NCBI RefSeq assembly: GCF_051105105.1
Contig: NZ_CP185339.1
Length of the DNA stretch: 64,000 nt
From: Nannocystis pusilla
GTDB taxonomy: Bacteria; Myxococcota_A; Polyangia; Nannocystales; Nannocystaceae
Reading direction: 5' to 3' (one strand)
Below the pieces are notes generated by a model. That model was not told the origin of the DNA, did no database searches, and worked only from the letters and a program-made list of their open reading frames with translations. Positions 7,225 through 63,812 of this stretch are shown here, one piece after another. The position numbers were made by a program, and so were the translations under genes. How positions within the stretch are numbered: the stretch's first letter is position 1; each line of letters opens with the position of its first letter.

Positions 7225-7307
7225 GCATGCCCGAAGGGACATGCCCGATTCGACATGTCCTTCTCGCCATGTCCATCACGACATGCCGCGAAGGACATGT
7301 CCAGTAG
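7225..7307. repeat. tandem array of six units of about 14 bp, each GACATGYCC plus a 4-7 nt spacer
   Basis: gcatgcccgaagg / gacatgcccgattc / gacatgtccttctcgc / catgtccatcac / gacatgccgcgaag / gacatgtccagtag. It lies in the intergenic region after the UDPGP gene, about 460 bp upstream of pgi. Confidence 0.8.
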
Positions 7308-7767
7308 TTTCCCCAGCCCTCTCGCGTCCCCACCGCCATTCGCCGCCCCGGAGCCGTCCGCCGCGCCGCCCGTCGCCGCGCACTGACGAGCGCCGGATGG
7401 GTCTCCAGGAGGTCCGAGCGATGGGCGGCCGGCCCCGGCCGTCCATCGCTCGGAGAGCCCTCCCCGCGCCGCGCCCTCCCGACAGCGGAGCCCACGACCG
7501 GCGCTCGGGCCACCCACGAGGCTAGCCGTGCAGCGGTCGGGGACGTGGGTCGGCGCCCATCCGCAGCGAGATGCGCCCGACGAAGGAGGGTGCATCCGCG
7601 AGGACTGGGCGCCGGCCCGCGTCCCCGACCGCCCGCGAGGCGGCCTCGGCAGTTCGCGAACCCCCGCGAAGCAAGCGCAACGAACCCCCGAAGCAAAGGC
7701 CGCCCGCCCGAGGCCTGGCGTCCCCAGGCTCCCCGCGAGCGCCGACGCTGCTATAAAGCGCGCCGAC

Positions 7768-9357
7768 ATGGCCGACGCACTCGACCACTATCTCACCTGG
7801 CGCCTTTACCGTGCCGAACTCGACATCGAGCTCGACTTCGCCGACGCCCAGCTCGACGAGCCCGCGCTGACCGCCAGCGCCCCGCGGCTCGAGGCCGCGC
7901 TGGACGCCCTTCACCGGATCGAGGGCGGCGCCGTCGCCAACGCCGACGAGGGCCGCATGGTCGGGCACTACTGGCTGCGCGACCCGGAGCGCGCCCCCGA
8001 TCCCGCGATCACTCAGGCCATCCACGACAGCTGGCGGCAGATCGAGGCCTTCGCCGCCGGCGTGCGCGGCGGCCAGATCCTCGCCGACGACGATCGGCCG
8101 TTCACCGGCGCCATCCTCGTCGGGATCGGCGGCAGCGCTCTCGGCCCGCAGCTGCTCGAGGCCGCCCTCACCGCGCGGGACAGCGGCCCCGGCTTCAGCC
8201 TGCGCGTCCTCGACAACACCGACCCGGCCGGCATCGCCGACCTGCTCGCAGAGACAGGTACGCTCGCGCAGACCTTGATCCTCGTCGTCTCCAAGTCGGG
8301 CTCCACCGTCGAGACGCGCAACGGCATGCTCGAGCTGCGGGCCGCCTGCGCCCGGCAGGCGATCGAGTTCCCCAAGCGGGCGATCGCCATCACCCTCGAG
8401 GGCAGCGCGCTCGATCAGCTCGCGCAGCGCGAGGGCTGGCTGGCGCGCTTCCCCATGTGGGACTGGGTCGGCGGGCGCACCAGCGTGCTCTCGCCGGTCG
8501 GCCTGCTGCCGGCGGCGCTGCTCGGCCACGACTGGCGCGGCCTCCTGCGCGGCGCCGCGGCGATGGACCAGTGGGGCCGCGTGCGGCCGGCGCGGCGCAA
8601 CCCGGCCGCCCTGCTCGCCTGGCTGTGGCACCAGCAGGGCTCCGGACATGGCCTTCGGGACATGGTCATTTTGCCATACAAGGATCGCCTGTCGCTGCTG
8701 TCGCGCTACCTGCAGCAGCTGGTGATGGAGTCGCTCGGCAAGCGGCTCGACCGCCAGGGGCGCGAGGTGTGGCAGGGGCTCGCGGTCTACGGCAACAAGG
8801 GCTCGACCGACCAGCACGCCTACGTGCAGCAGCTGCGCGACGGCCTGCACAACTTCTTCGCGGTGTTCGTGCGGGTGCTCCGCGACCTCGACGGCCAGGT
8901 CACGGGCCCGGGCATGGTCGAGGTCGAGCCGCAGGTGAGCTCGGGCGACTGCCTCGACGGCTTCTACCAGGGCACCCGCGCCGCGCTCGCCGAGCGCGGT
9001 CGGGCCAGCGCGACGATCGTCCTGCGCCAGGTCGACGCCGCCGCCGTCGGCGCCTTGATCGCGCTGTTCGAGCGCGCGGTCGGGATCTACGCCGAGCTCA
9101 TCGACGTCAACGCCTACCACCAGCCCGGCGTCGAGGCCGGCAAGCAGGCGGCGAAGGGCGTGCTCACGCTGCAGGCCGCGGTGCTCGCCGCGCTGCCGGG
9201 CGGCTCTGGAGGCAAGACCGCGCGCGAGCTCGCCGAGGCGCTCGGCGCCGACCCCGTGGCGGTGTGGCAGGTGCTGCGTCACCTCGCCAGCAACGGCCGC
9301 GTGAGCGTCGACAGCCTCGTCGATCCGGCGGCTGCACAGTTCGCGCGCGCGCCTTGA
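7768..9357 (+). CDS. pgi: glucose-6-phosphate isomerase
   Basis: Carries the SIS-domain PGI motifs (ILVGIGGSALGP, LVVSKSGSTVET, ESLGKR, HAYVQQL). The ORF track starts earlier at 7528, but the first convincing start is the ATG at 7768 (MADALDHYL). Confidence 0.85.
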   Translation: MADALDHYLTWRLYRAELDIELDFADAQLDEPALTASAPRLEAALDALHRIEGGAVANADEGRMVGHYWLRDPERAPDPAITQAIHDSWRQIEAFAAGVRGGQILADDDRPFTGAILVGIGGSALGPQLLEAALTARDSGPGFSLRVLDNTDPAGIADLLAETGTLAQTLILVVSKSGSTVETRNGMLELRAACARQAIEFPKRAIAITLEGSALDQLAQREGWLARFPMWDWVGGRTSVLSPVGLLPAALLGHDWRGLLRGAAAMDQWGRVRPARRNPAALLAWLWHQQGSGHGLRDMVILPYKDRLSLLSRYLQQLVMESLGKRLDRQGREVWQGLAVYGNKGSTDQHAYVQQLRDGLHNFFAVFVRVLRDLDGQVTGPGMVEVEPQVSSGDCLDGFYQGTRAALAERGRASATIVLRQVDAAAVGALIALFERAVGIYAELIDVNAYHQPGVEAGKQAAKGVLTLQAAVLAALPGGSGGKTARELAEALGADPVAVWQVLRHLASNGRVSVDSLVDPAAAQFARAP

Positions 9358-9400
9358 CGCGCGAGACGTCGCGGCGAAGGGCGAGTATCCTGCCGCGCCC

Positions 9401-10816: not shown

Positions 10817-10823
10817 TCGAGCC

Positions 10824-10880
10824 AGCTCTCGAGGGCATGTTCTCGAGAGCATGTCCTCGAGGGCATGCTCTCCAGGACAT
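10824..10880. repeat. tandem array of four units of about 14 bp (GCATGYYC-TCGAGR-like), filling the convergent intergenic region
   Basis: gggcatgttctcgaga / gcatgtcctcgagg / gcatgctctccag / gacatgctcttcag. It lies between the MATE stop (10816) and the DUF1963 stop (10886). Confidence 0.8.
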
Positions 10881-10885
10881 GCTCT

Positions 10886-13415: not shown

Positions 13416-13590
13416 ACCCGCTGGCCGGGCCGCGCTACAAGCAGCTCACCGGATGTCCCGGGGGACCTGTCCCGAAGTTCAGACGTGCGTCACACCGCGT
13501 CTGCCGCGCCCGCAGCGGGCTCGACAGGAGCCGCCGAGACAGCGCGACTGCCGACGCGACGCGAAAGACTCGTGCGGGCCGTGGCCGGCG

Positions 13591-16370: not shown

Positions 16371-19300
16371 GCCTCCTCCTGCGCCACCTCGAAGCCAACG
16401 GCCCGCTGTCGCGCGCCGATCTCGAGGCCGCGACCCGGCGGCAGCAGCTGGCCGGCGGCAGCCTCGACACCGCGATCCTCGAGCTCGGGCTGATGACCCC
16501 GCTGCAGCTCGACGCCCTGCTGCAGAGCGCCTGCGGCCTCCCCGGCGCGCCGGTGCGGCTGCTCGAGCGCGGGCCGACCCGTCCCTGGGAACATGTCCCG
16601 AGAGACCTGGTCGACATCGGCTGGGCCATGCCGCTCGCGCAGGAGGACGGCCGGCTGATCGTCGCCGTCCACCCCGACCTGCCCGACGCCAAGCTCGGCC
16701 AGCTCTACCGCATGGTCCGCGGCTTCTACCCGGTCGTCGCGCCCGAGTGCTGCCTGGCCAAGATCGCCGTCGAGCGCACCGGCTCGATCCTCGCCCCGCG
16801 CTACGCGCTGATCCTGCTCGACTACCTCGAGGCGCTGCGCACCGCCTCGATCACCATCAGCCTGGTGCCGGGCTCCGCCGAGGCGCGGGCGGGCGAGCCG
16901 CCTGTCCCTGCGGACAGGCAGCCGGCCGAGGCACCTGTCGCAACGGACAGGCAGCCGACGGCGGCCCGCGCCGAGGCAGCTGTCCCTGCGGACAGGCAGA
17001 CGGCCGACGCGCCCGACGCGGCGCCTGTCCCTGCGGACAGGCAGACGGCCGACGCGCCCGACGCGGCGCCTGTCCCCGCGGACAGGCAGCCTGCCGACGC
17101 CCGAGGCGCCGACACGACTGTCCCTGCGGACAGGTCGCACGCCGAGGCGCGACCGGAGCCGTCCGGCGCCGACACCCCGGTCGACGCTCGCCTCGCCGAC
17201 GCGCCCGCCGGCGATCGCCAGGCAGGCGACCCCGACGCGAGCCTGGAGCCCGGCGCCCCGGCCCGCCGCACCGACGCGCCCCCCGCCGCCCACGGGCTGG
17301 AGGTCGAGGCCGGAGGCCCTGCCCTCGGTTCGTCGCGACCCGGCGGGTCGGTGATCGGCCAGGTCGCCGCTGGTCGCGCGGATGCTCCTGTCCCTGCGGA
17401 CAGGTCCGCCGCCGACGCGAAGGTCGACGGGGCCGAGGCCTCGACTGCGGCCGGCGCCGTGCAGGCGGACGCCGCGGACGACGGGCGGACCGCCGCTGCC
17501 CCTGCCACCGGGGACGGGACGACCGCGGGCGCGCGGCCGGCGTCGCTGGCCGACGCGCTGCAGGCCGACGTACCTGTCCCATCGGACAGGCAGATGGCCG
17601 GGCCGCGCCCGGCGGCGATGTCCGGGCCCAACACCGCGGCGCGCGCGACGGGTTCGCCGTCCGGCGCCTCGCCGTTGTCGGAGGCCGGCTCGCCGAGGAC
17701 CGGGCCCGAGGACGCGGCCGCGACACCGCCTGCCCCCGGGGACAGGCCGAACGAGTCGCCCGCACCTGCCCTCAAGGACAGCCGCGACGAGGCCATCGAC
17801 GCGGACCGGGCCCGCCCGGCGAACGGGCCCGCGCTCGCCGCGGGTTCGTCCCCCGCGGCGCCGACTCCCGCCGGTTCGACGGCGTCCGACTCGGACGCCC
17901 ACGCGCCTCTCGCCGCCGACGAGCTCGCCGCGGACCGAGCGGCCGCCAGCAGCCCCGCGCCGTCGGCGTCGGCCCCGGCCGATGCAACTGTCCCTGAGGA
18001 CAGCAAAGGCGAAGCATCGCCGTCGCCGAGCGTCGCCGGCGCGTCCGCACCGGTCCCCGCGGGCAGCTCCGCTTCCAACGCCTCGACCAGGTCATTCCAG
18101 CTCGACACCCCGAGCCTCGCCGCTGCGGGGCGCCGGACCGAGCCCGCCCCCGCGCCTGCCGCCGCGGCGAGCCGCCAGACGGCTGCCTACGACTCCCGCG
18201 CGCCCGAGCCCGACTCCGCTGCCGCCGCCAACCGGCCCTCGACGCGGCCCTCGCCCGTCCCCGTCGCCCCGGACGCCCCGCTCATCGACCCGGGCGGCTT
18301 CGAGGACGAGAACGCCTCGCTGGCGGCGATGGCCATCGCCCCCGACACGCCGCTCATCATCCTGCCGCCGGCGACCACGCCGCGACCGGTGACCCCGCCC
18401 CTCGGGGTGCCGATCTACTCGGACACCTCGTCCGGCAATTGGGACAGGCGCACCCTCGTCGGCATCCCCGTCGGCGTGGCGCCCTCCCCCGCCCCCGCGG
18501 CCGACAAGCCCGCGGCCGCGCACGGCCCGAGCAACGGCGTCGCTCGCCCCACGACCGCGCCGGGCACACCTGTCCCTTCGGCCAGCCCCGTCGAGCCCGC
18601 CCCGAGCCCGCCTGTCCCTTCGACCAGCTCCCTGGAGGCCGCGCCGAGCGCCGCCGAAGCCGGGTCCGACGAGGATCTGGTCGAGTCGTCGACGCGCAAG
18701 CCGCCGGCCCTGCCGCAGCCGATGGTCATGACGCTGGCGCAGCGCCTCGACGCCGCCCGCGCCACGCTGGCCACCGCGCGCGAGCGCGACCGGATCACCG
18801 AGGCCCTGGTGCGAGCCGCCAGCCTGATCGCCCCGCGCGTGGCCCTGTTCGGGGTCAAGCGCGAGGGTCTGCGCGTCCTGGCCGCGCCCGGCAGCGCGCT
18901 GCGGATGTCCGAGGGCCTCGTCATCCCGCTGCCCGAGGGCGGCCTCCTCGATCGCGCGGTGTCGGGCCAGGGTCCGCTGCACCTCCTGATCGAGCCGAGC
19001 CTGTCGTTCGCCGTCGGCCAGCCGCTGGGGATCCCCTGCATCTTCGAGCCCGTGCTCGCTGGCGGACGCACCGTGCTGATGCTCTACCTCGACCGCTCCG
19101 GCGTCGCCTTCGATCCGCGCGAGCGGACCGTCCTGCGCGAGCTGTGCGACACGGCCCGGCAGAGCCTCGAGGCGCTGCTGCGGCTGCTCGGGTGGGTGGT
19201 GCCCGGCGGCACGCCCGGGGCCGGCCCGGCCGACCGTACACGCCCGTCGATCCGGCCCGCGACCCCGATCGTCACCGTCGACGAGGCCGACCCGCCGGGG

Positions 19301-21637: not shown

Positions 21638-21649
21638 GCGGCTGTCACT

Positions 21650-21707
21650 TCGGGCATGTCCTGAAAGACATGCCTGAATCGGCATGCTCATTCGGGCATG
21701 TCCTCTG
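21650..21707. repeat. tandem array of four units of about 14 bp of the same family
   Basis: cgggcatgtcctgaaa / gacatgcctgaatcg / gcatgctcattcgg / gcatgtcctctgg. It begins immediately after the giant gene's stop (21637). Confidence 0.8.
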
Positions 21708-22033
21708 GACCAGGCACCGCGGCGACCCGAGCGCGCGCGAGCGCGTGCTACCCGACACGGCCGCAGGCCCGGCCGTCCGGGCGCGGCCTTCGCCCGTGCC
21801 CATGACGGTTCCGGCCGCGACACCGCACCTGCGCCGCCCGAGCTCGCAAGGCCACGGCGCAGGCATGACCGTTCGGACATGCCCCATCGACCTCCCGCTC
21901 GCCCGCCGCAGCCATGACTGTTCGGACACGGCCTTTCGACCATCTCCCTTGTTCAACGCCGGCGACGGGCCCTCGCTGACCAGCGCGGAGGACATGGCCG
22001 ATGCGCCACGCCCTCGGAGCGCCTTCTCGCGGC

Positions 22034-23976: not shown

Positions 23977-23983
23977 CCCGACA

Positions 23984-24015
23984 CCTGCGCTTCAGGACAT
24001 GCCCTGAAGCGCAGG
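23984..24015. terminator. perfect 13-bp-stem hairpin (cctgcgcttcagg-acatgc-cctgaagcgcagg) between convergent genes; candidate bidirectional intrinsic terminator lacking a U-tract
   Basis: It starts 8 nt after the stop of the 22981-23976 gene and ends 110 nt before the 3' end of the 24126 gene on the other strand. The loop and flanks contain the GGACATGCC motif. Confidence 0.45.
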
Positions 24016-24125
24016 TTCGCCTCCCAGCGCTCGGACCGCGACGCGCGGACGCGGACGGCCGCTCCCGCGAGCGCACGCACCCGGCAGCGCCCCGTCAGGC
24101 GCGGCGAACCTCGCGTCCGACCGGT

Positions 24126-26525: not shown

Positions 26526-26689
26526 CGCACCCTCCGAAGGCGCGAGCGTAACACGCTGCCGCAACGTCACCGGACGCGCGCTCCCACGCGCGCGGGCGCG
26601 GCGGCGCCGGCGAGACACGACATGTCCCTCGGGACAGCCATGGAGCTCGGTGAACCGTGGTCACGCGCCGCGGTTCGATGTTCTGCGCC

Positions 26690-33599: not shown

Positions 33600-34326
33600 T
33601 CAGCGGGAGAAGTCGATGCGCTCCTGCATCGGGATGAGGGTCTGGGTGACGTACTTGACCTCCTTGCCGAGGTCCGCGTCCCACACACCGAGGGTGATCT
33701 TGACGCGCTCGGGCAGGCGGTTGGGCTGCATGTCCTGCTTCATCGTGCGCCACTCGTCGCGCCACTCGATGCGCTTGACGTCCCAGTACTTGACGTCGAA
33801 CGACTTGATGTCCTCGCAGAACACGTAGGCCGGCCACCACTCCTCCATCTTCTCCGGGCGGTCGGCCATCAGCCGCCGCGTCTCGCGCTTGTAGAGGTGC
33901 GTGCGGTTGGCGTCGTTCGGGTCCTTGTAGAGGAAGTACTGGATGACCGACTGGTCGCTCTCGTTGGCGTCCTTGCGCATGCGGATGTGGGCGAACGCGG
34001 AGAACGTGAGGCTGTCGGCGTTGAACTCGTCGCGGCCCTCGAACAGCGTGTAGTGCAGTTCATCGCCGGCGGGACGGTTGTGCGACAGGTACGCCAGCGA
34101 GATCTCGGTGCCCATGCGCGCCAGGCAGTTGCGCAGCACCGCGTACTTCTGCTGGGTCTTCTCCGCCGAACGCATGCTCTGCGCCGTCGTGCTGAAGCTG
34201 GCGTAGACCGAGGCGGTCATCATCGTCATCATCGCCACCGCGACGAGGATCTCGATCAGCGACAGGCCGCGCTGGCGGGCTGTCCGCGAGGACATGGTCG
34301 GAACGACATGGCCGATGGTACTCATC
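33600..34326 (-). CDS. gspJ: type II secretion system minor pseudopilin J (GspJ)
   Basis: Prepilin-type N-terminus RGLSLIEILVAVAMM. Its ATG overlaps the gspI stop (ATGA). Confidence 0.7.
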
Positions 34327-43183: not shown

Positions 43184-44593
<1,410 letters not shown>

Positions 44594-45289
44594 GGGCGCT
44601 CGAGTCGAACCCGCGGTGTGCAATTCGGGGTCCTCGGTGAAAAGCGAATGATTCTAAGGCAAGTCCTGGAGCCAGAACGAGGGTGTCACGCGCAATTGTC
44701 AGGCCGTCCGAGGCGGGTTGCCAAAATGGCAATCGCGGCCCTCGCGCCCGCCTCCCGGCGCCTCAACCGCCACCCCCCTGCCCCGCCTTGGCGGGGCGGC
44801 GGCGAGGTCGGCCAGGGGGCGAGGCGGCGGCTGGCGCTTGGGACAGGTCGAGGAGCGGCAGCTGGAACGACGAGAGTGAGACGGATGCGCTGCGGGGGGC
44901 TGTCTCGAGGGACAGGTCGCGGTCGACGGCTCGGGTCGTCGGTGGGGCCGGTGATCGCTCGGCCGGAGGCGTACCTGTCTCGACGGACATGTGGGCGCTG
45001 GCGGGCGCTTCGCTCGGATTGCTGCGTGACGGCGCCGTTGCATCTGGTTCTTGGGACATGTCCGTCTCGGCGGGCCGGACTGGCCTCGCGGTCGCTGGCG
45101 CGCGCGCGGTCCTGGCTCGCGCGACCGTGCTCGCCCCGGGCTCGACCGGCGCCTCTGACTTCGACGGACCCGTCCCGGCGGACAGGCCATCGCCCGCGGC
45201 GCGCTTGGCGGCGGCCTTGCGCCCTTTCTTGCTCGGGCCTTCGCCTGTCTCTTCGGTCAGACTCTTCTGGGGCGGCCGGATCTTTCCTC

Positions 45290-49293: not shown

Positions 49294-49424
49294 GCGGAGG
49301 CGGCGAGAAGGATCGCCTGTCTTCGAGGCCATGCTTTCGTGACGCCGGGCGAACAGAGCGATCTGTCCCTGGGGACATCCGCGCCGCTTCGGGCTCTCGG
49401 CTGCCCTCAAGGACAGGTGACCGC

Positions 49425-50870: not shown

Positions 50871-51191
50871 GGATCGACGCTAACACGGCGATCGCCCGCG
50901 AAAGGACAGGCGAATGCGCGCCCTGCGGCCCTTAGTCGCCGTTCTGCGGCCGTTTACGGGGTCCGCGGGCCCCACGTGGCGGACCTCAGGCGAAGTCGAA
51001 CATGGCTGAAAGGACAGGCGATGCGAATGGCAGGGCGCAGCTCGCCATGGCCGCTCAATGTCTCGAGAGACATGTCGCTATAGGCAGCTCAGATGGGCGC
51101 GCTCGCTCGCTGGCGGCAAGATCCAGTCCGGGGGGCGCGTCCGCGTCCGCGCCAGTTGCCGAGGCCGCCCCGCCGCGTGTACGATCGCGCG

Positions 51192-53176: not shown

Positions 53177-53236
53177 CCGCCGTAGAGGGCTTCTGTGCGC
53201 TTTTGCGCCGGCGATGAATGGGCTAAATTGCTGCAC

Positions 53237-54751
53237 ATGCGAACACGCCGTCCCTGGGCCGCCCTCACCCTCCTCCTCGCCTGCACGCCGCAAGGTGGCG
53301 GCGACACCGACGCGACGACCGCGGCGGTGACCGACTCCACGCCGGGCACCGATTCGACCGACTCGAGCGAAGCGACGGACACGGCGACGACGGGGCCGAC
53401 GTTCGACCAGCGACGCGCCGCCGACGGGGACGACGACCGAGGCGCCGGCGACCACCTCGACGACGACCGAGGACCCGACCGCGCCGACGAGCACGACCAC
53501 CGAGACCGGCGGCGACGGGCTGCACGGGCTCGTCCTCGAGGACACGTTCGAGGACGGGATTCTCGAACGGCTGGGTCCGCGTCGAGCGGTGGTTCGACCC
53601 CGATCCGTTCTTCATTCAGGAGGATCGGTTCGACCTCGATCAGCGGGCCCACCAGACCGGGCAGCGGCTTCGAGTTCTTCGGCAACGACCCGGTGCCGCA
53701 CAGCGGGCGGTTCTTGCTGTACTACGCGCCCGGCTGGAACAACGGCGCCAAGTCGACGGTGCTGCTGGCGCACGGCGCCAACGACCAGGCCGACCGCGCG
53801 TGGGCCAACCCCGGCGAGAGCGGCGACTTCGGCTGCGGTCAGTCGACCTGTCCCGACATCGGCCTGATGCAGGAGCTGGCGGCCGCGGGCCACCGCGTGT
53901 TCGCGGTCTCGCACGCGCACAGCCAGGGCGACAACGTGTTCTGGGCCCTGCAGATCGCGTGGGCCATCGACATCATCCGCGAGCGCACCGGGGTCGACAA
54001 GGTCGACGTGATCGGGTGGAGCAAGGGCGTGATGTCGTCGCGCATGTACGCGTCGGGCCTCACCGGCGGTCACCTCGAGTACCGGGGCGACATCGACAAG
54101 CTGATCCTGATCGGCGGGCCGAACCTCGGCTTCGACTACATCTTCCGCTACGGGACGGCCCACAACGCCGGCGTCTACGCCGACTTCGGCGGCAAGATCC
54201 ACGCGCCCGGGCCGCACGACGAGCTGCTGATCTTCGGCCTGTGGGAGGACCGCTCGGAGTACGCGATCTACAAGTCCGCCGCCGGCGACAACTACCGCGG
54301 GCAGCTGCAGATGCTCGCGGCGTGGGACGACGTTTATCCGCTGACCGGCACGGCCAACAACGGGCTGATGCAGTGGATCGTCGGCGACAGCGAGTCGACC
54401 TACTACGGCGAGGGCCAGTACAAGGGCGTGTACGCCCGCGGCAAGGGCATCGACTACGCGATCCAGCAGGGCTCGGTGATCGCCGACATGATCGACGCCG
54501 GCATCCCCGCCTCGATCTCGACCCACCTGCTGTGCGGCGACCTGAACCTCAATGACAACAGCGTGCTGATCCCGGGCATCCCCAACGAGATCGCCGGGCC
54601 GAGCGACGGCGTGGTGTTCGTCGACAGCTGCGCGGCGACCGACGGGATCGGGACGCTCACCGACTCGGCTGTCCTGAAGGACATCAACCACCTCAAGCTG
54701 GGCTGGCACCCGACGGCGGCCGCCCAGATCCTGACGTGGCTCGGTCAGTGA
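53237..54751 (+). CDS. secreted lipase/esterase-like alpha/beta hydrolase lipoprotein; three compensating frameshifts (a heptamer at 53398-53404 and single bases near 53568 and 53660)
   Basis: Lipoprotein signal LLLACTPQGG and a T/S/D-rich linker, then GWSKG (nucleophile elbow). With the heptamer removed, the frame between 53404 and about 53660 reads SDAPPTGTTTEAPATTSTTTEDPTAPTSTTTETGGDGLHGLVLEDTFEDGILE, then GWVRVERWFDPDPFFIQEDRFDLDQ, instead of the R/D/H-rich nonsense of the called frame. The shifts total 9 nt, so the ORF track shows one open frame. Confidence 0.6.
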   Translation: MRTRRPWAALTLLLACTPQGGGDTDATTAAVTDSTPGTDSTDSSEATDTATTGPTFDQRRAADGDDDRGAGDHLDDDRGPDRADEHDHRDRRRRAARARPRGHVRGRDSRTAGSASSGGSTPIRSSFRRIGSTSISGPTRPGSGFEFFGNDPVPHSGRFLLYYAPGWNNGAKSTVLLAHGANDQADRAWANPGESGDFGCGQSTCPDIGLMQELAAAGHRVFAVSHAHSQGDNVFWALQIAWAIDIIRERTGVDKVDVIGWSKGVMSSRMYASGLTGGHLEYRGDIDKLILIGGPNLGFDYIFRYGTAHNAGVYADFGGKIHAPGPHDELLIFGLWEDRSEYAIYKSAAGDNYRGQLQMLAAWDDVYPLTGTANNGLMQWIVGDSESTYYGEGQYKGVYARGKGIDYAIQQGSVIADMIDAGIPASISTHLLCGDLNLNDNSVLIPGIPNEIAGPSDGVVFVDSCAATDGIGTLTDSAVLKDINHLKLGWHPTAAAQILTWLGQ

Positions 54752-54772
54752 CGCGAACGGCCCGCCCGGGGC

Positions 54773-55918: not shown

Positions 55919-56313
55919 GCGGCCCCCCGGACCGAGCGGGCCAGCTCGGCCTGCAGCTTCTCCAGCAGCTGGAGCGCGAGCTCCAGCTGGGTGGTGGTGA
56001 TCTCGAGCCGGTCCTCGGCCCGCCGCAGCTGCGCCCGCACCTCGTTGAAGTCGCCGAGCGTCGGCACGCGCCAGAAGTGCAGGACCTCCTCGGTGAGGTC
56101 GACGACGTTGCGGTGGAGGTGGAACATCTTCTGCAGCCCGCGGCCCGCGAACTTGAGGTAGCGCGGGCTGGTGGCCAGGCGCGTCATGACGCCGGTCGAG
56201 GCGCCCTCGAAGCGCATCCACCACTTGCCGGGGCCGCTCTTGGGGTCGGTGAGGTAGCCGACGAGCCGGAGGATCCGGGCGGTGAGGTTCCTGGGGGCTG
56301 TCTCTTGGGACAT
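55915..56313 (-). CDS. small coiled-coil protein, putative PHA synthase partner subunit (PhaE/PhaR-like) or phasin
   Basis: 132 aa with a coiled-coil C-terminus (...EDRLEITTTQLELALQLLEKLQAELARS). It is translationally coupled to phaC. The assignment is by position only. Confidence 0.35.
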   Translation of the reverse strand: MSQETAPRNLTARILRLVGYLTDPKSGPGKWWMRFEGASTGVMTRLATSPRYLKFAGRGLQKMFHLHRNVVDLTEEVLHFWRVPTLGDFNEVRAQLRRAEDRLEITTTQLELALQLLEKLQAELARSVRGAA

Positions 56314-56326
56314 GGCGAATAAAGTC

Positions 56327-57851
<1,525 letters not shown>

Positions 57852-57989: not shown

Positions 57990-58547
57990 TCAGGAGGCGG
58001 GCCGCCTGCCCTTGCGGGGGGGCTTGCCGTCCTCGACGGTGCGCCGCAGCTCGGCGAGCTCGCGCCGCAGCGCGGCCAGCTCGTCGGACATGCCGCCTGG
58101 CTCGGGCGGGGGCGGCTCGTCGGGGAACGGCGGCGGCGCCGGCTCGCCGGCCGCGGGCGGGGTCCCGCCGAACCATCTCTTGAGGATCCCCGGCATCGCC
58201 AGGTCGGCCAGCGGGTTCCACGGGACGACGGCGCGCGCGCCCCCCTTGAGCTGCAGGTAGACCTCGAGCGCCCAGGCGATGTAGCGGCCGAAGAACTCGG
58301 CGAGCGCGTCGTCCCGCATGCGCACGAGCTGCTTGAGCAGGGACACCGGGAGCAGGCGCGCCGCCCCGCGGCTCTCGAGGATGATCTGCGCGAGCGTGAC
58401 CTGGGTGAGGTCCTGCCCGCTCTTGGCGTCGACGACCTTGAGGTCCTCGCCCATGCGCACGCGCTCCGCGATCTCCTCGAGGGTGACGTACCGGCTGCCC
58501 TCGGTGTCGTAGAGCCGACGGTTGCCGTACTTCTTGACCTGCAACAC
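57990..58547 (-). CDS. phaR: polyhydroxyalkanoate synthesis repressor PhaR
   Basis: VKKYGNRRLYDTEGSRYVTLEEIAERV...KVVDAKSGQDLTQVTLAQIILE is the PhaR DNA-binding N-terminal signature. The GTG start is inferred. Confidence 0.7.
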   Translation of the reverse strand: MLQVKKYGNRRLYDTEGSRYVTLEEIAERVRMGEDLKVVDAKSGQDLTQVTLAQIILESRGAARLLPVSLLKQLVRMRDDALAEFFGRYIAWALEVYLQLKGGARAVVPWNPLADLAMPGILKRWFGGTPPAAGEPAPPPFPDEPPPPEPGGMSDELAALRRELAELRRTVEDGKPPRKGRRPAS

Positions 58548-58862
58548 GGCGAGAACGGTAGCCGAGGTCGTGCTGCAGGTGCGAGGGGCGATTTCGCGCG
58601 AACAGGCGAACGCCACGGAGGGCGGCGGGAACGAGGCACGGGCGCGCGTCGCCTGTCGCCAGGTTTTCGGCCCTGGTAGCGGCTGGGAGCGCCGGGCGGC
58701 GAAATCATCGACCGGTCGAGCTCGGCGCGGAGCCACGCTCGGCCGCGCAGCGGGCCGTTCGCGCCTGGGGGCGCCGCCGCCGGGTCGCGGACGGGTGAGA
58801 CGCGATCTGGCCGATGGGACAGACCCTCCGCGACGCCCTCGACCCTCGGCCGGCGCATGTCC

Positions 58863-59837
58863 TCACGGACATGTCGCCGGGGCCAGCTTGCAGTCGGAGA
58901 ACCAGGCGGCAACGTCGCGGCACTGCGGGTCGGCCGGGTCGGCGGCGGCGCAGGCGAGGAAGCCGGCGCGATCGCGCAGGGAGCACAGGCGCGGCAGCTC
59001 CCACTTGCGGTCGCGGCAGCTGGTGTCGCGCGGGTCGCAGGTGCTGCGCATCCAGGTCGCGGTGCCGTCGCCGCGGAGGAACACGCGGTCATCGACGTTG
59101 CGGGCGCCGACCAGGCTCTCGACGCGGAGGCTGGCGGCGGCCTCGGCGGCGAGGGCCTGGTAGAGGCAGGCGTCGCCGGCGACCTCGTCGTCGCACGGGC
59201 GCGGCGAGGCGCAGGCTTCGAGCAGCGCGAGGGCGATGTCACCCGGGCAGCGGCCGGCCGCGCACACGCAGGCGCACGCCTCGGGGTCCTGCGAGCCGAG
59301 GCCGCACTCGGTCCAGCCTGCAGGATGCTCGGGGCCGGGGAAGTCGCCGGCCTTGCGACCGACGCGGCGGACGTGGACGACGTTGCCGACCCGCTTGTAG
59401 AAGGTGGAGTCGTAGTCCTCGTCGCCGGTCGAGGCGCTGGCGGTGGCGCAGAAGCCCGCGGCCTCGAAGGCGCAGGTCGAGCGATTGGCGAGGCGCTCGG
59501 TGGCGAACCAGATGCAACCGGCGGCGTCGCAGTCGGCCTCGACGGCGTGCGACTCGCACGGCTCGACGGCCGCGGGCGGGAGCTCGGGCGCGAGGTCGGG
59601 CGGCGGCGTGACGAGGGCGCCGCTGCCGGTGACCGGCACGCTGGTGGCGGCGTCGCCGGTGCTCGTGCTGCCGGCGGTGCCGGTGGTGCTCCCCTCGCCG
59701 ACCGTCGCCACGGTGCCGCCCTCGCTGTCGGTGCCGCGCGAAGCCGCGTCGGACCGCCCGGGGCTACACCCAGTCGCTACCAGCCACGAGAAGAGATAGG
59801 CGACGCCTGCCGGGCGCGCGCCAAAACCAAACCGCAC
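58863..59837 (-). CDS. Cys-rich lipoprotein, hypothetical
   Basis: Signal peptide plus lipobox (MRFGFGARPAGVAYLFSWLVATGC), a T/G/S linker, then a domain with more than 20 Cys (...CDAAGCIW...CAFEAAGFCA...CACVCAAGRCPGD...). Confidence 0.5.
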   Translation of the reverse strand: MRFGFGARPAGVAYLFSWLVATGCSPGRSDAASRGTDSEGGTVATVGEGSTTGTAGSTSTGDAATSVPVTGSGALVTPPPDLAPELPPAAVEPCESHAVEADCDAAGCIWFATERLANRSTCAFEAAGFCATASASTGDEDYDSTFYKRVGNVVHVRRVGRKAGDFPGPEHPAGWTECGLGSQDPEACACVCAAGRCPGDIALALLEACASPRPCDDEVAGDACLYQALAAEAAASLRVESLVGARNVDDRVFLRGDGTATWMRSTCDPRDTSCRDRKWELPRLCSLRDRAGFLACAAADPADPQCRDVAAWFSDCKLAPATCP

Positions 59838-60802
59838 GGTCTCACCCTGCCAGAGCACGCGCAGGAGATCAAGGAACCGCAGCGCTGGCGGCCCCGGCGC
59901 GGCGCGACGATTGCGACCGAGGCTGCCCGACGATGTGGGCGAGCATCGCCGGTGTAAGAAGCTCGCTGCGACGAATGGGTGATGCGCGACACAGGCCCGG
60001 CGCGATGAAGGATGAAGAAGGAATGCCGGCGACGGGCTGGAGTCGACGGTTGCCCGCGGTTGCGAGGGAGAGGCCCACTCCGAGGCGTTTTCCGCGGGCC
60101 AGCGGGGCCCGGGCGCGGGCTGTGCGAACCGGTGTGCTCGGCTCGGCGGAGCGTCGGTCGCAAGGGTGACCCGCGCTCGCGGCTGCACGGTCGATGACGT
60201 TGGTCCACGCGCCGCCTGCCCTTCCGGCTCGGTCGTCGCGCCCGTTCCTGGCGCTCGCGCGGGCCGATCCTTGCGGTGTCATTCCGTGACCCGCGTCGGA
60301 GGCGAGGCGCGTCGGTGTCGAGGCGAACTGCAACGCGTTGTTCGATCGCGCGGCGGCGCAGGCGACGTCGTCCGGTCGGCGCTGGAGCCGGTGGGCGAAG
60401 CGCAGTGCGTCTGTCGACGTGACAGTGGCGGTGCCGCGGCGGGAGTACGACTGTCCGGTCCAGCGAGGCTGGAGGCGGAGCGCGACCGTCGATTTCGACG
60501 CGCGAGTCAGCGCCCGGCGCGACGGCCACCACGGCGCAGCGAACCTGCCGGGTCGGGATCGGCCGGCGTGCCCCGAGTGCAGGGGCGCGGTCCCTGCCCC
60601 GTCCACGGACCGCCGCGCGGCCGAACCAGGGCGCGGGGTCCCTGCCCCGTTCGCGTCGGATCGGCGCGGCCGAGCCTACCTCGCGCCGCGCGAACGCATC
60701 CCCCGGGCCGGCGGCCTCTTGCTCGCCCGGCTGCAGCGAGCTCGCTGCAGCGGCTGCAAGAACGTCGACGCATTGGGATAGCTGAACGCACACATCCCTC
60801 AC

Positions 60803-60873
60803 GACATGCTCTTTCGAGCATGCTCTTCGGAGCATGTCTTTTCGCCAATGGGCGAAAGAGCATGTCGCTTCGG
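60803..60873. repeat. tandem array of four units of about 14 bp of the same family, with an embedded 7-bp-stem hairpin
   Basis: gacatgctctttcga / gcatgctcttcgga / gcatgtcttttcgccaatgggcgaaaga / gcatgtcgcttcgg. The third unit carries the hairpin tttcgcc-aatg-ggcgaaa. Confidence 0.8.
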
Positions 60874-60930
60874 GCAGGGCGAGCGACCTCCCGAGCGGAC
60901 CCTACCCGCCGTGGCGGGGCCTGCGGCGCC

Positions 60931-62013: not shown

Positions 62014-62108
62014 GCGGGTCTGATTTTTGTTTTAGGCGCGCGGACGGCGTTTGAGAAGCAAAATCCCGCCTTGCGCCGCGGGGCCGGCGGGTGCGAGGCT
62101 GGCTGCGC

Positions 62109-63677
62109 ATGCAGGTCGCCGTGGCCGGAGCGAGCGGGTTCATCGGACAGGCGACCGTCCACGCGCTGCTGCAGGCCGGTCACGCGGTGGTCGGGCTGTC
62201 GCGGGGCCGTCGCGGCCGCATCGATCGGCCGGGGCTGGTGTGGCGAGAGGTGGACGTGAGCCGCGGGGGGCCCGAGCTGGTGGCCGCATTGGCGGGCTGC
62301 GAGGCGGTGGTCAACCTGGTGGGGATCAAGCGGCCCGAGCCGGGGCAGTCGTTCGACTCGGCCCACGTGGCGACGGTGGCGGCGCTGACGACCGCGATGC
62401 AGGCGGCGGCGATCCGGCGGCTCGTCCACGTCAGCGTGGCCGGGCCGCGAGCGGAGCCGCCGCGGCCGACGCAGTACATGACGACCAAGCGAGAGGCTGA
62501 ACGTTCGGTCATGTCCTCCGAGACAGACTGGACGATCCTCCGCCCCGGTCCGGTGGCCGGGCCGGGCGACGACTTCGTGCGCAACCTGGCGGCGACGCTG
62601 CGCCACGCGGGGGTGTTCCCGGCCCCGGACGGCGGCCACGCGCCGCTGCAGCCGGTGCTGGTCGAGGACGTGGCGCTGGCGATCGCGGCGGCGCTGGCGC
62701 GACCGGCGGCGATCGGGCGCTGCTACGACGTGGTCGGACCGGAGGTGCTGACGCTGCGCGAGGTGGTGACGCGGGTGGCCGACGCGCTGGGGCTGCCGGT
62801 GACGCTGGTGCCCTGCCCCGCCCCGCTGCTGGCGGTCGCGGTCGCGGGGCTCGAGAAGCTGCCCGACCCGCTGCTGACGCGGGCGCAGCTCGGGCTGCTC
62901 AGCCACGGGCTGATCGGCGATCCGGGGCCAGCGGCGGCGGAGCTCGGGCTGGTGACGCAGCCGCTGACCGCGGCCAAGATCGTGGCGCTGTCGGCCGGGG
63001 TCGAGCCGTGGCTGGGGCTGTCGCTGCGGCTGCGACGTGGCGACGAGGACATGTTCTTCAAGACATGTTCAAAGGGCGCGATCCACGTGGCCTGGCTGGT
63101 GCCGCTGGCGGTGGCGCTGATCTGGGCGCTCGGCTCGGTGACGCCGCACGTGTGGTGGCGGATGCTGGCGGCCAACCTGGTGCTGGTGCCGCTGTGCCTG
63201 CTGACGGTGCGTCTGCCGTGGCTGGAGCTGTGGCGCCCGAGCCTGCGCGGGCTGGTCCAGGGGGTGATGGCGACGGCGGTGCTGGTCGCGGCCGGCTGGC
63301 TCGGCAGCCAGGTGCTGTTCGCGGTGACGCCGGAGGCGCGGGCCGAGGTTGCGGCGGTGTACGGCTGGGTCCACCTGCTGCCGGCCGGGCTCGCGGTGGT
63401 GCTGCTGCCGCCGATCGCGGCGGCGGAAGAGGTGGTGTGGCGCGGGGCGGTGGCGTTCGCGGTGGCGTCGCGCGCGGGGCCGTGGTGGGGCGCAGCGACG
63501 GCGGCCGCCGCCTTCGCGGTGGCGCACGTGAGCCTCGGGGTGCCCGCATTGGTGGTGGCGGCCGCCGGCGCGGGGTTCTTCTGGGCCTGGCTCGGCCTCA
63601 AGACCCGCAGCCTGTTCGTGGTGCTGGTGTGCCACGTGCTGTGGGACGCGTGCGTGGCGGTGCTGCGGCTGTACTGA
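62109..63677 (+). CDS. fusion protein: NAD(P)-binding NmrA/epimerase-like domain plus a C-terminal CPBP (CAAX protease / Abi) intramembrane metalloprotease domain; could be two genes read through
   Basis: VAGASGFIGQATVHALL (Rossmann fold) and, downstream, EEVVWRG...FAVAHV.. (CPBP motifs). The linker ...RGDEDMFFKTCSKG... (63040-63075) is encoded by two copies of the GGACATG motif and contains an in-frame ATG at 63051. Confidence 0.55.
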   Translation: MQVAVAGASGFIGQATVHALLQAGHAVVGLSRGRRGRIDRPGLVWREVDVSRGGPELVAALAGCEAVVNLVGIKRPEPGQSFDSAHVATVAALTTAMQAAAIRRLVHVSVAGPRAEPPRPTQYMTTKREAERSVMSSETDWTILRPGPVAGPGDDFVRNLAATLRHAGVFPAPDGGHAPLQPVLVEDVALAIAAALARPAAIGRCYDVVGPEVLTLREVVTRVADALGLPVTLVPCPAPLLAVAVAGLEKLPDPLLTRAQLGLLSHGLIGDPGPAAAELGLVTQPLTAAKIVALSAGVEPWLGLSLRLRRGDEDMFFKTCSKGAIHVAWLVPLAVALIWALGSVTPHVWWRMLAANLVLVPLCLLTVRLPWLELWRPSLRGLVQGVMATAVLVAAGWLGSQVLFAVTPEARAEVAAVYGWVHLLPAGLAVVLLPPIAAAEEVVWRGAVAFAVASRAGPWWGAATAAAAFAVAHVSLGVPALVVAAAGAGFFWAWLGLKTRSLFVVLVCHVLWDACVAVLRLY

Positions 63678-63812
63678 TCAGGCGTTCTCCGGGACATGTC
63701 CGCAGGGACACTCTCGGGCATGGGTTCGCCACCTGTCTTTTCAGTCATGCGGGGGAGCGCCCGGCCGCGCTTGCGGACGCGACCCGCGCGCTGCTATCGA
63801 GGTCGCACCCCC

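What the first reader, a model, noticed from the sequence alone, without database searches (positions are those of the whole stretch)
7225..63740. Dispersed palindromic motif family built on the half-site GGACA/TGTCC (GGACATGYCC and relatives), strongly over-represented and mostly intergenic
The AT-centred palindrome GACATGTC occurs about nine times in the window (7252, 7294, 26097, 26628, 45055, 45293, 51070, 58870, 63690, among others). A back-of-envelope estimate for this GC content gives an expectation of about 0.4. Relaxed forms GGACATGCC, GCATGTCC, TGTCCGAACGGACA (44483) and CTGTCC-N4-GGACAG number in the dozens. They concentrate in intergenic regions between convergent genes (10824-10880, 21650-22033, 49370-49420, 23984-24015), in divergent and promoter regions (26628-26646, about 100 bp upstream of the 800-aa hypothetical gene; 58815-58878, upstream of phaR; 50900-51075, between the lipoprotein and MYXO-CTERM gene starts; 13440-13480), and downstream of the last gene at 63680-63740. 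They also generate the recurring spurious ORF peptides RTCP, CPRGQ and MLSRTC seen on both strands in the six-frame track. This pattern fits a genome-specific REP/BIME-like element, or the operator of a very abundant dimeric regulator that recognises GGACA half-sites in both head-to-head and tail-to-tail arrangement. I do not recognise it as a described myxobacterial element.
Basis: seen in the sequence. Interest (0 to 1): 0.85.

Follow-up and report, generated by a model that had tools for sequence, protein, structure and literature searches.

The report
Nannocystis 14-bp phased palindrome arrays
The scattered GGACA/TGTCC palindromes are one repeat family, found here only in the myxobacterial genus Nannocystis: a 14-bp palindromic module laid end to end in strict register just after the ends of genes, an undescribed counterpart of the REP elements of E. 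coli.

Summary
GACATGTC occurs 10 times against 0.8 expected, and GGACATGTCC with at most one mismatch occurs 26 times against 1.8.

The head-to-head and tail-to-tail forms are one structure. The module is TGYCC-N4-GGRCA, 14 bp long, and abutting modules create an invariant CATG. In the window, CATG pairs lie exactly 14 bp apart 20 times and never 13 or 15 bp apart. In 403 kb of Nannocystis DNA, the N4 spacer occurs 139 times against at most 6 for any other spacer.

It returned this type of array only from six Nannocystis species. Every other hit was a plain mini- or microsatellite.

Arrays of 1-8 modules sit just after stop codons. Of 57 arrays, 33 lie between convergent genes, 22 between same-direction genes and 2 between divergent genes. 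Between species, arrays change in module number, appear and vanish, and are sometimes replaced by ordinary hairpins. CATG and the register are kept while other positions drift.

The arrays would fold very stably as RNA, but there is no U-tract, no compensatory covariation and no G·U versus A·C strand asymmetry.

Best reading: a REP/BIME-like, DNA-level repeat family recognised by a dyad-symmetric partner. A role in ending or insulating transcription is inferred. It is a new variant of a known kind.

The parts
7223..7302 (.). Array of 6 phased modules (CATG at 7226, 7240, 7254, 7268, 7282, 7296), 51 nt after the stop of the UDP-glucose pyrophosphorylase-like gene (6048-7172, +).
   Evidence: The RNA fold has z -6.2 on the + strand and -5.8 on the - strand. 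The orthologous spacer holds a non-alignable array in N. bainbridge and none in N. radixulma.
10833..10884 (.). Array of 4 modules that fills the 69-nt gap between the convergent MATE transporter gene (9401-10816, +) and the DUF1963 gene (10886-12304, -).
   Evidence: The fold is -44.2 kcal/mol, z -7.3. The ortholog has 8 modules in N. bainbridge and an ordinary hairpin instead in N. radixulma.
21643..21703 (.). A boundary half module (GCTGTC) plus 4 phased modules, starting 6 nt after the stop (21637) of the large HEAT-repeat ORF. The neighbouring gene, 22034-22870 (-), is convergent.
   Evidence: fold.
21861..21930 (.). Two phased modules (CATG at 21864 and 21878) and a further CATG-N9-GGACA in the same convergent spacer.
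23980..24020 (.). A single core, GGACATGCCC, at the tip of a 13-14 bp perfect hairpin (ACCTGCGCTTCAGG / CCTGAAGCGCAGGT) between convergent genes 22981-23976 (+) and 24126-26618 (-).
26619..26646 (.). GACATGTCC-ctcg-GGACAg-cCATG: one N4 module with flanking CATGs, 54 nt after the stop of the sigma-54 activator gene (26690-28099, -) and just upstream of the 830-aa ORF.
34281..34313 (.). TGTCC-gcga-GGACATG-N10-CATG: an N4 module plus 2 phased CATGs, directly after the stop of gene 34322-35086 (-).
44470..44505 (.). CTGTCC-N8-CTGTCC-gaac-GGACATG: three half-sites in 14-bp register near the start of gene 43184-44623 (-).
44901..45063 (.). Relaxed modules TGTCTCGAGGGACA (44901) and TGTCTCGACGGACATG (44976), and an isolated core GGACATGTCC (45054), in a roughly 680-nt non-coding stretch downstream of a minus-strand gene.
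49318..49415 (.). Single modules TGTCCctggGGACA (49364) and TGCCCtcaaGGACA (49402), plus a degenerate one (49318), between convergent genes 48517-49293 (+) and 49425-50870 (-).
51059..51076 (.). TGTCtcgagaGACATGTC, a relaxed module.
54670..54683 (.). TGTCCTGAAGGACA inside the last 80 nt of gene 53195-54751 (+), about 90 nt beyond the stop of the convergent gene 54773-56224 (-). The intergenic gap here is only 21 nt.
56299..56314 (.). TGTCtcttgGGACATG, a relaxed module in the 13-nt gap after the stop of gene 56327-57532 (-).
58853..58876 (.). CATGTCC-tcac-GGACATGTC: one N4 module with two phased CATGs. It overlaps the stop of minus-strand ORF 58863-59711 and lies about 120 nt upstream of the phaR ORF (57990-58736, -).
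60802..60875 (.). Array of 3 phased modules plus one more after a degenerate slot (CATG at 60805, 60819, 60833, 60861), 92 nt beyond the stop of the hydrolase gene 60931-62013 (-).
   Evidence: fold z -5.2 and -6.6.
63692..63727 (.). GGACATGTCC-gcag-GGACAC-N10-GGGCATG: an array with one degenerate slot (CACT at 63709), starting 15 nt after the stop of gene 62091-63677 (+).
13454..13481 (.). TGTCCcgggggacc-TGTCCcgaag: two half-sites 14 bp apart between the small minus-strand ORF (3' end about 13591) and the start of the MeaB gene. Kept in N. bainbridge and N. radixulma.
16903..19325 (+). Ten in-frame TGTCC-N4-GGACA-type sites inside the disordered middle of the large ORF 16367-21637. They encode PVPADRQ-like repeats with very rare codons.
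   Evidence: Orthologs keep the palindrome while the peptide changes.
20597..20620 (.). Two phased modules (GGAACATGCCCCCGAGGACATGCCCC) inside the same large ORF.

Best explanation
The window comes from a Nannocystis species. It carries a repeat family that was found here only in that genus. The basic module is a 14-bp palindrome, TGYCC-N4-GGRCA. Modules occur singly or abut with no gap, 2-8 in a row, and each junction then reads GGRCA|TGYCC. That junction gives an invariant CATG every 14 bp, and arrays end in half modules (cTGTCC ... GGACAg). The elements sit almost only just downstream of stop codons, above all between convergent genes.

I read the family as the Nannocystis counterpart of REP/BIME elements. 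It is a DNA-level element whose core and spacing are kept because a sequence-specific, dyad-symmetric partner recognises them. That partner would be a protein, possibly the one that spreads or resizes the arrays. The elements persist at 3' ends, where they also give both transcripts a very stable hairpin or a bound block that ends or insulates transcription.

Shown here: the lattice, the restriction to the genus among the genome hits returned, the 3'-end position, the rapid turnover, the conservation of CATG, and the absence of RNA-type signatures. Inferred: that a protein partner exists, how the elements spread, and the terminator or insulator role.
For: Lattice: CATG-CATG distances of 14, 28 and 42 bp occur 20, 11 and 8 times in the window, with none at 13 or 15. 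In 368 kb of Nannocystis DNA the same distances occur 262, 172 and 113 times, with at most 5 at 13 or 15. TGYCC-N4-GGRCA occurs 139 times against at most 6 for any other spacer from 0 to 12. GGRCA-N0-TGYCC occurs 89 times against at most 5.

Logo from 359 units: (A/T)(A/C)GGR-CATG-YCC-NN. Arrays end in GGnCA followed by G.

Lineage: 38 of the 120 loci returned for five phased CATGs come from six Nannocystis species. All other hits are near-identical 7- or 14-bp tandem repeats. No such elements occur in three 21-kb loci from more distant Nannocystaceae or Nannocystales genomes. The window's MATE protein is 87% identical to that of N. bainbridge, and gene order matches over about 21 kb.

Position: of 57 arrays with at least 3 units, 33 are between convergent genes, 22 between same-direction genes (mostly next to the upstream gene's stop) and 2 between divergent genes. 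In the window, all five confidently called convergent pairs carry an element.

Turnover: the same spacer holds 4, 8 or 0 modules in three species. Another holds 6, about 6 (not alignable) or 0, and a third holds 0, about 8 or about 4. One orthologous pair differs by one whole module, 5 against 4. Three orthologous sites that lack an array carry an ordinary hairpin instead.

Selective conservation: in one alignable orthologous pair, 0 of 20 CATG positions differ against 15 of 50 other positions, while the flanks are 94-97% identical.

DNA-level symmetry: G·U and A·C mismatches are equal on the sense strand, 64 against 65. C-A is not depleted at the Y/R pair. There is no complementarity at the variable positions.

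Hairpin potential: folds have z -4 to -7. Real arrays fold little better than arrays assembled from random units of the family, -6.96 against -6.43 kcal/mol per unit. The stability therefore comes from the consensus itself.
Against: No partner protein, transposase or RAYT gene was identified, and none could be searched for. The conserved tetranucleotide is CATG, not the GTAG of classical REPs. The module is much shorter than a REP.

Units within an array are as different from each other as random family members. That is hard to square with simple copy-and-paste spread.

The 3'-end position could reflect only where insertions are tolerated, not a function. No expression or 3'-end data were available.

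Gene positions in the Nannocystis loci come from a GC3 frame heuristic that miscalls some genes; for example, it called the window's own MATE spacer same-direction.

The sense strand folds slightly better than the antisense strand in 18 of 24 one-direction contexts (p = 0.04). This weak hint of RNA-level selection points the other way.
Confidence: 0.5

Rival explanations
1. A host-encoded protein lattice. A dimeric DNA-binding protein found only in this genus binds each 14-bp palindrome and polymerises cooperatively along abutting sites. The bound array acts as a two-way transcription roadblock or a barrier to supercoiling at the ends of transcription units. Under this reading the arrays are host regulatory or architectural sites, not REP-like selfish or mobile DNA.
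For: The half-site spacing is rigid and the 14-bp register exact. CATG is invariant while neighbouring positions drift. There is no compensatory covariation and mismatches are strand-symmetric. Unit numbers fall off smoothly, with 35, 16 and 5 arrays of 2, 3 and 4 units, and show no preference for even numbers. Every confident convergent pair in the window has an element. Tandem abutting palindromic operators bound cooperatively are an established mode, as in the MetJ met-boxes and the omega-protein heptads (general knowledge).
Against: Presence or absence and module number at orthologous sites change quickly between close species, and ordinary hairpins substitute for arrays. That pattern looks more like interchangeable 3' hairpins or mobile DNA than conserved binding sites. 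No candidate protein is known. About ten sites lie inside one coding region.
Confidence: 0.25
2. Purely RNA-level elements. The arrays are factor-independent terminators or 3'-end protective hairpins that work in both directions. The shared sequence is only a frozen accident of common descent.
For: They sit right after stop codons and between convergent genes. Predicted folds are very stable on both strands. Ordinary hairpins occupy the same position in species that lack the array. The sense strand folds better in 18 of 24 one-direction contexts, p = 0.04.
Against: There is no U-tract after the arrays. Loop length never varies: N4 occurs 139 times, N3 3 times and N5 twice. There is no compensatory covariation and C-A mismatches are not depleted. 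G·U equals A·C on the sense strand. Real arrays fold barely better than random assemblies of family units. CATG is conserved far more than the other stem positions.
Confidence: 0.13
3. Operators of an abundant transcription factor that controls promoters.
For: The half-sites are dyad-symmetric at fixed spacing. A few sites also lie upstream of a gene, for example 26619 before the 830-aa ORF, 58853 before phaR, and the conserved 13454 site before the MeaB gene.
Against: Only 2 of 57 arrays are between divergent genes and 33 are between convergent genes. The 'promoter' sites in the window are also the 3' ends of the preceding gene. Five of the six divergent spacers in the window have no element; the sixth, near 51059, depends on an uncertain gene call.
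Confidence: 0.04
4. Clusters of target sites for a DNA methyltransferase or restriction-modification system with RCATGY-type specificity, acting as an epigenetic mark.
For: The invariant core RCATGY is a typical type II recognition sequence (general knowledge; not tested here).
Against: CATG overall is neither avoided nor strongly enriched in the window, at observed/expected 1.18. The conserved GG/CC flanks, the 14-bp register and the N4 single modules that lack CATG are not explained.
Confidence: 0.03
5. Chance, a codon or start-codon by-product, or ordinary slippage-type tandem repeats.
For: A few instances are coding coincidences. The two phased CATGs at 8644-8667 lie in a PGI gene segment that is identical in two other species, and some GACAT sites may be start codons.
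Against: Enrichment is 10- to 20-fold over shuffles. There are 20 pairs at exactly 14 bp against about 1 expected. The arrays are non-coding. Adjacent units are no more alike than random family members, unlike every non-Nannocystis hit.
Confidence: 0.01

Closest known systems
REP / BIME elements of Escherichia coli and other Proteobacteria (repetitive extragenic palindromes, mobilised by RAYT transposases)
   Same: Short palindromic units at high density, limited to a lineage and lying outside genes. They concentrate at gene 3' ends and between convergent genes, cluster in arrays, turn over quickly between relatives, and carry one conserved tetranucleotide plus a hairpin-forming core.
   Different: The module is only 14 bp and is itself a palindrome. 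Modules abut on an exact 14-bp lattice instead of being joined by linkers of set types. The conserved tetranucleotide is CATG, not GTAG. Only about 8 of 14 positions are conserved, so units in one array differ widely. No RAYT link has been tested.
Intrinsic (Rho-independent) and bidirectional terminators
   Same: Position just after stop codons and between convergent genes. The hairpins are very stable and can form on both strands. Ordinary hairpins replace them at orthologous sites.
   Different: There is no U-tract or A-tract. The sequence, loop length and register are fixed across hundreds of sites, which a hairpin function alone does not require. There is no compensatory covariation.
Tandem cooperative operators: MetJ met-boxes (8-bp palindromes, 2-5 abutting copies) and omega-protein heptad arrays of plasmid pSM19035
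   Same: Abutting short dyad-symmetric units in exact register, a variable number of copies, and tolerance of degenerate units within an array.
   Different: Those arrays lie in a handful of promoters and repress them. These lie at hundreds of gene 3' ends. No binding protein is known.
DNA uptake sequences (DUS/USS) of Neisseria and Haemophilus, and HIP1 of cyanobacteria
   Same: Lineage-specific short motifs at about one per 1-3 kb. DUS often occur as inverted pairs that double as terminators. HIP1 is a short, highly iterated palindrome.
   Different: DUS/USS are not palindromic and not phased. HIP1 is spread through coding DNA. Neither forms a 14-bp lattice. Competence in Nannocystis was not examined.

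Membership tests
REP/BIME (RAYT-associated repetitive extragenic palindromes) | Many dispersed copies, lying outside genes | tested here: met
   The window holds about 17 non-coding sites in 64 kb. There are 99 phased-CATG arrays of 2 or more units in 368 kb of Nannocystis DNA. Most copies are non-coding.
REP/BIME (RAYT-associated repetitive extragenic palindromes) | Preference for gene 3' ends, convergent spacers and gaps within operons | tested here: met
   Counts are 33 convergent, 22 same-direction and 2 divergent; window details.
REP/BIME (RAYT-associated repetitive extragenic palindromes) | Unit is an imperfect palindrome of about 20-40 nt | tested here: not met
   The unit is a 14-bp palindrome, TGYCC-N4-GGRCA. 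Only arrays reach 28-112 bp.
REP/BIME (RAYT-associated repetitive extragenic palindromes) | Conserved GTAG/CTAC tetranucleotide next to the hairpin | tested here: not met
   The invariant tetranucleotide is CATG.
REP/BIME (RAYT-associated repetitive extragenic palindromes) | A RAYT (Y1 HUH transposase) gene in the genome, flanked by the repeats | not testable with these tools
   Whole Nannocystis genomes could not be scanned for a protein family. No such gene was seen in the called genes of L121-L123.
Intrinsic terminator | Stable G+C-rich hairpin downstream of a stop codon | tested here: met
   Folds reach -28 to -53 kcal/mol, z -2.3 to -7.3. Arrays start 6-92 nt after stops.
Intrinsic terminator | Run of U immediately 3' of the hairpin | tested here: not met
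   The flank profile of 128 array ends shows T at 0.05-0.23 beyond the last half module and no T run.
Structured RNA under selection for pairing | Compensatory changes and tolerance of G·U on the transcribed strand | tested here: not met
   No complementarity beyond the shuffle expectation at variable positions. C-A is not depleted. G·U 64 against A·C 65 on the sense strand. There is only a weak bias in fold energy, p = 0.04.
Plain tandem repeat (mini- or microsatellite) | Near-identical adjacent units made by slippage | tested here: not met
   Identity between adjacent units equals the shuffle expectation at every position. In contrast, all non-Nannocystis hits have near-identical units. One N. 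pusilla array (L083) is of the slippage type.
Cooperative tandem operator (MetJ or omega type) | Abutting dyad-symmetric units in exact register | tested here: met
Cooperative tandem operator (MetJ or omega type) | Located in promoters of a regulon, with a known cognate repressor | tested here: not met
   Only 2 of 57 arrays lie in divergent spacers. The existence of a binding protein is not testable here.
Rfam RNA families | Match to a curated covariance model | tested here: not met
   No match at gathering score anywhere in the window.

The most novel reading that the evidence does not exclude
Nannocystis has a dedicated protein that polymerises on a rigid 14-bp lattice of palindromic sites placed at the ends of transcription units. 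This would be a sequence-programmed, two-way, protein-based terminator, roadblock or supercoil barrier used genome-wide in place of classical U-tract terminators. No such system is known in bacteria.
Probability: 0.2. Interest if true: 0.85.

Novelty: new variant of a known kind. Interest (0 to 1): 0.6.

Why it matters
High-GC bacteria such as myxobacteria mostly lack recognisable U-tract terminators. How they end and insulate transcription between convergent genes is poorly understood.

This study found a sequence-defined, genus-wide element at those positions. Its rules are precise enough to be tested by mutation: an invariant CATG, an N4 spacer and a 14-bp register. That turns a vague question into a direct experiment comparing hairpin against protein lattice.

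The element also gives a new example of how a REP-like family can be built. The motif is a ready marker for Nannocystis DNA in metagenomes and a likely bait for a new DNA-binding protein. Genome annotators should expect spurious ORFs and peptides from these arrays.

Tried and rejected
- **Rfam:** the whole window at gathering score gave no match.
- **Literature:** five searches found no description of the element. They covered Nannocystis with palindromic, intergenic and repeat; REP with myxobacteria; RAYT with Myxococc; and the motif string itself.
- **Viral contigs:** the five-CATG pattern gave 42 loci, none of the Nannocystis type.
- **Exact look-up of the window's MATE protein:** not on record, so the source genome itself is not in the collection.
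- **Pairing within a unit or across junctions at the variable positions:** none found.
- **Preferred tetraloops (GNRA, UUCG) in the N4 spacer:** none. The spacers are varied and simply richer in A+T.
- **U-tract or A-tract flanks:** none.
- **Recent copy-and-paste:** tested through excess near-identical units. Only a mild excess was seen, 29 exact pairs against 6.9 expected, and part of it is orthologs.
- **Restriction-type avoidance or excess of CATG:** none, at observed/expected 1.18.
- **Replication origin or terminus explanation for the GC-skew turn near 24-30 kb:** rejected. The skew simply follows gene strand.
- **Highest-order Markov background (k-2):** it does not flag the motif, because the sub-words are themselves enriched. 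The order-2 model does flag it.
- **DnaA-box, CsrA (GGA), LexA and CRP/FNR-type site resemblances:** considered from memory and dropped, because the conserved positions or the locations do not fit.

Full report
**1.

GACATGTC occurs 10 times in the window. Dinucleotide-preserving shuffles give 0.79 on average and at most 4. GGACATGTCC with up to one mismatch occurs 26 times against 1.8 expected. Under an order-2 Markov background, GGACATGT/ACATGTCC (17 vs 0.9) and AGGACATG (18 vs 1.07) head the list of enriched 8-mers. The window has about 71% G+C.

**2. The forms reduce to one 14-bp lattice**

The key feature was not in the finding. Distances between CATG tetranucleotides are 14 bp for 20 pairs, 28 bp for 11, 42 bp for 8 and 56 bp for 4. 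No pair is 13 or 15 bp apart, and about one pair is expected at any given distance.

Written in register, the sites are arrays of units of the form nnGGR-CATG-YCCnn. There are six units at 7223-7302 and four each at 10833-10884 and 21652-21703. There are three plus one at 60802-60875, and pairs elsewhere.

The two arrangements are therefore the same lattice. Array ends show a half unit (cTGTCC at the 5' side, GGnCA-G at the 3' side), and single TGYCC-N4-GGRCA sites are common. The natural module is thus the 14-bp palindrome TGYCC-N4-GGRCA, and abutting modules create the CATG.

The spacing is rigid. In 403 kb of Nannocystis DNA, TGYCC-Nn-GGRCA occurs 139 times with n = 4 and at most 6 times with any other n from 0 to 12. 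GGRCA-Nn-TGYCC occurs 89 times with n = 0 and at most 5 times otherwise.

**3. It belongs to the genus Nannocystis**

I scanned one genome for each of 185,579 species with five CATGs at 14-bp spacing. Thirty-eight of them came from six Nannocystis species: exedens, pusilla, punicea, radixulma, bainbridge and sp. RBIL2.

Every non-Nannocystis hit is an ordinary 7- or 14-bp tandem repeat with near-identical units. The Nannocystis arrays keep only the core and differ freely elsewhere. The logo from 359 units has G at 0.69-0.70 at positions -3 and -2, A or G at -1, CATG, T or C at +4, and C at 0.69-0.73 at +5 and +6.

The window itself is from a Nannocystis species. Its MATE transporter is 87% identical to that of N. 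bainbridge, and gene order matches N. bainbridge and N. radixulma over about 21 kb. An exact look-up of the protein found nothing, so the source genome is not in the collection.

Three 21-kb loci from more distant Nannocystaceae or Nannocystales genomes hold no phased CATG pairs and 0-2 modules. A metagenomic relative at 72% protein identity has one phased pair. IMG/VR viral contigs hold none of this type. Rfam has no match, and five literature searches found no description.

**4. Where the elements sit**

I called coding strand from the GC3 frame signal on both sides of 57 arrays with at least three units. Thirty-three lie between convergent genes, 22 between genes of the same direction and 2 between divergent genes. 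In the same-direction cases where the two distances differ, the array is nearer the upstream gene's stop in 10 cases and nearer the downstream start in 3.

In the window, all five confidently called convergent pairs carry an element. These are the pairs at 10816/10886, 21637/22034, 23976/24126, 49293/49425 and 54751/54773. In the last pair the gap is only 21 nt, and the module lies inside the end of the opposite gene. About half of the same-direction gaps carry one, and five of the six divergent gaps do not; the sixth, near 51059, depends on an uncertain gene call.

Arrays begin 6-92 nt after the stop. This applies to 26619, to 58853 upstream of phaR, and to 51059.

The frame heuristic is imperfect. 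It miscalled the window's own MATE spacer. The tool-called genes of L121 and L122 agree for the three arrays there.

**5. How the elements evolve**

At the MATE/DUF1963 convergent spacer the window has 4 modules and N. bainbridge has 8. N. radixulma has none there but has an ordinary hairpin. After the UDP-glucose pyrophosphorylase gene the window has 6 modules. N. bainbridge has about 6 that cannot be aligned with them, and N. radixulma has none. After the MeaB gene the window has none, N. bainbridge about 8 and N. radixulma about 4.

Among the scanned loci, one orthologous pair (N. punicea and N. radixulma) differs by one whole module, 5 against 4. At a second site an array in one species faces an ordinary hairpin in the other.

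In the one pair of arrays that aligns cleanly (N. pusilla and sp. RBIL2; flanks 94-97% identical), none of the 20 CATG positions differs. Fifteen of the other 50 positions differ.

The register and CATG are therefore held while the rest drifts at or above the neutral rate. Arrays are gained, lost and resized in quanta of 14 bp.

**6. RNA hairpin or DNA site?**

As RNA the arrays would fold very stably, at -28 to -53 kcal/mol, with z mostly -4 to -7 against shuffles, on both strands. That result, the position, and the replacement by ordinary hairpins in other species all argue for a hairpin role at transcript 3' ends. However, the signatures expected of selection on pairing are missing:

- Variable positions show no complementarity within units or across junctions.
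- The Y/R pair shows no depletion of C-A mismatches. The counts are T-A 68, T-G 51, C-G 46 and C-A 44.
- In one-direction contexts, G·U and A·C mismatches on the sense strand are equal, 64 against 65.
- Real arrays fold only slightly better than arrays assembled from random family units, -6.96 against -6.43 kcal/mol per unit, p = 0.02.
- The loop length never varies.
- No tetraloop type is preferred.
- No U-tract follows the arrays.
- Unit numbers fall off smoothly, with no preference for even numbers.

The only hint in the other direction is that the sense strand folds better in 18 of 24 cases, p = 0.04.

Within a unit, the R and Y that flank CATG are anticorrelated. ACATGC and GCATGT are preferred over the perfect palindromes (z = -4). 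I cannot explain this.

Taken together, the conserved features are a tetranucleotide, GG/CC flanks and exact spacing, symmetric on both strands. These are what a dyad-symmetric protein reading DNA would impose. A hairpin would not need them.

**7. Best explanation and rivals**

I file the family as a REP/BIME-like element of Nannocystis (confidence 0.5). It is a DNA-level repeat recognised by a sequence-specific partner. It is tolerated, and probably useful, at gene 3' ends, where it supplies a strong two-way hairpin or a bound block. The partner, the mode of spread and the terminator or insulator role are inferences.

It fails strict REP membership on unit length and on the GTAG tetranucleotide. 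The RAYT link could not be tested.

The main rival (0.25) is that the arrays are host sites for a cooperative DNA-binding protein. That protein would act as a roadblock or topological barrier, with no mobile-element history. A purely RNA-level terminator or stabiliser gets 0.13, promoter operators 0.04, and methylation-site clusters 0.03. CATG overall is neither avoided nor strongly enriched, at observed/expected 1.18. Chance, codon or slippage artefacts are rejected.

**8. Sites inside a gene**

Ten TGTCC-N4-GGACA-type sites lie in frame in the disordered middle of the large ORF 16367-21637. This ORF has an N-terminal segment that resembles, by eye, a secretion-ATPase N-terminal domain (not tested), and its orthologs show faint HEAT-repeat hits. 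The sites encode PVPADRQ-like repeats.

All eight arginines there use AGG, which makes up 0.7% of Arg codons in the window's other genes. The flanking prolines mostly use CCT, which makes up 2.5% of Pro codons. Orthologs in N. bainbridge, N. radixulma and the metagenomic relative keep a palindrome at these places while the peptide changes to forms such as PVLADS.

Some of these copies are tandem duplicates, so the codon counts are not independent. Even so, the pattern suggests that the nucleic-acid motif, not only the peptide, is kept there.

**9. Limits**

- The Nannocystis loci were selected because they contain an array of at least five units.
- Gene calls outside L121-L126 are heuristic.
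- No transcript, methylation or protein-binding data exist for these organisms in the tools available.
- The conservation argument for CATG rests on one cleanly alignable orthologous pair plus the general scarcity of gapped arrays. There are 172 pairs at 28 bp, against 163 expected from unbroken chains.

Noticed in passing
window 7388-7665 (also L121 7991-8265, L122 7915-8187, and an inverted second copy at L122 12951-13221): A conserved non-coding element of about 275 nt upstream of the pgi gene. It has long hairpins that change by compensatory substitutions between species, for example GGGGACGTGGGTCGGCGCCC...GGGCGCCGGCCCGCGTCCCC against GGGGATGCGGTCCTCCGACC...GGGCGGAGGACCGCATCCCC. N. radixulma has a second, inverted copy at another spacer. 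Rfam gives no match (best E 0.047, to a microRNA). No further copies occur in about 360 kb of other Nannocystis loci. It looks like an unannotated structured RNA or a small mobile element.
   Followed up: partly
window 16367-21637 (+): An ORF of about 1,750 aa with a very long proline- and alanine-rich disordered middle that carries PVPADRQ-type repeats of 33-45 nt period. It is conserved and equally repetitive in N. bainbridge and N. radixulma.
   Followed up: partly
viral loci L128, L133, L135, L155, L164, L166: Several IMG/VR contigs of about 46% G+C carry a different set of 14-bp-phased CATG arrays with variable spacers. The units resemble TGATTCATGTATTC and TAATACATGCTAAC. They look like phage iterons rather than simple tandem repeats.
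   Followed up: no
L083 3549-3632 (N. pusilla): One Nannocystis array consists of six nearly identical units (TCGGACATGCACGT). It is a slippage-type expansion on the same lattice, unlike the other arrays.
   Followed up: no
window 41254-41332: A (CCG)n triplet repeat of about 26 copies inside a region with a minus-strand coding signal.
   Followed up: no
whole window: CTAG is strongly depleted: 5 observed against 38 expected from trinucleotides, a ratio of 0.13. AATT, TATA and TTAA are above expectation at very low counts.
   Followed up: no
whole window: GC skew follows gene strand, with the coding strand richer in C. It is negative where genes are on the plus strand (5-22 kb) and positive where they are on the minus strand (30-48 kb). 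The turn in cumulative skew near 24-30 kb is therefore not evidence of a replication origin or terminus.
   Followed up: partly
array units in all Nannocystis loci: Within a unit, the bases flanking CATG avoid the perfect palindrome. GCATGT and ACATGC are commoner than ACATGT and GCATGC (z = -4 for within-unit complementarity). No model considered here explains this.
   Followed up: partly
window 8644-8667: Two phased GGACATG units lie inside the pgi coding region. They are identical in N. bainbridge and N. radixulma and are probably a coding coincidence rather than an element.
   Followed up: partly
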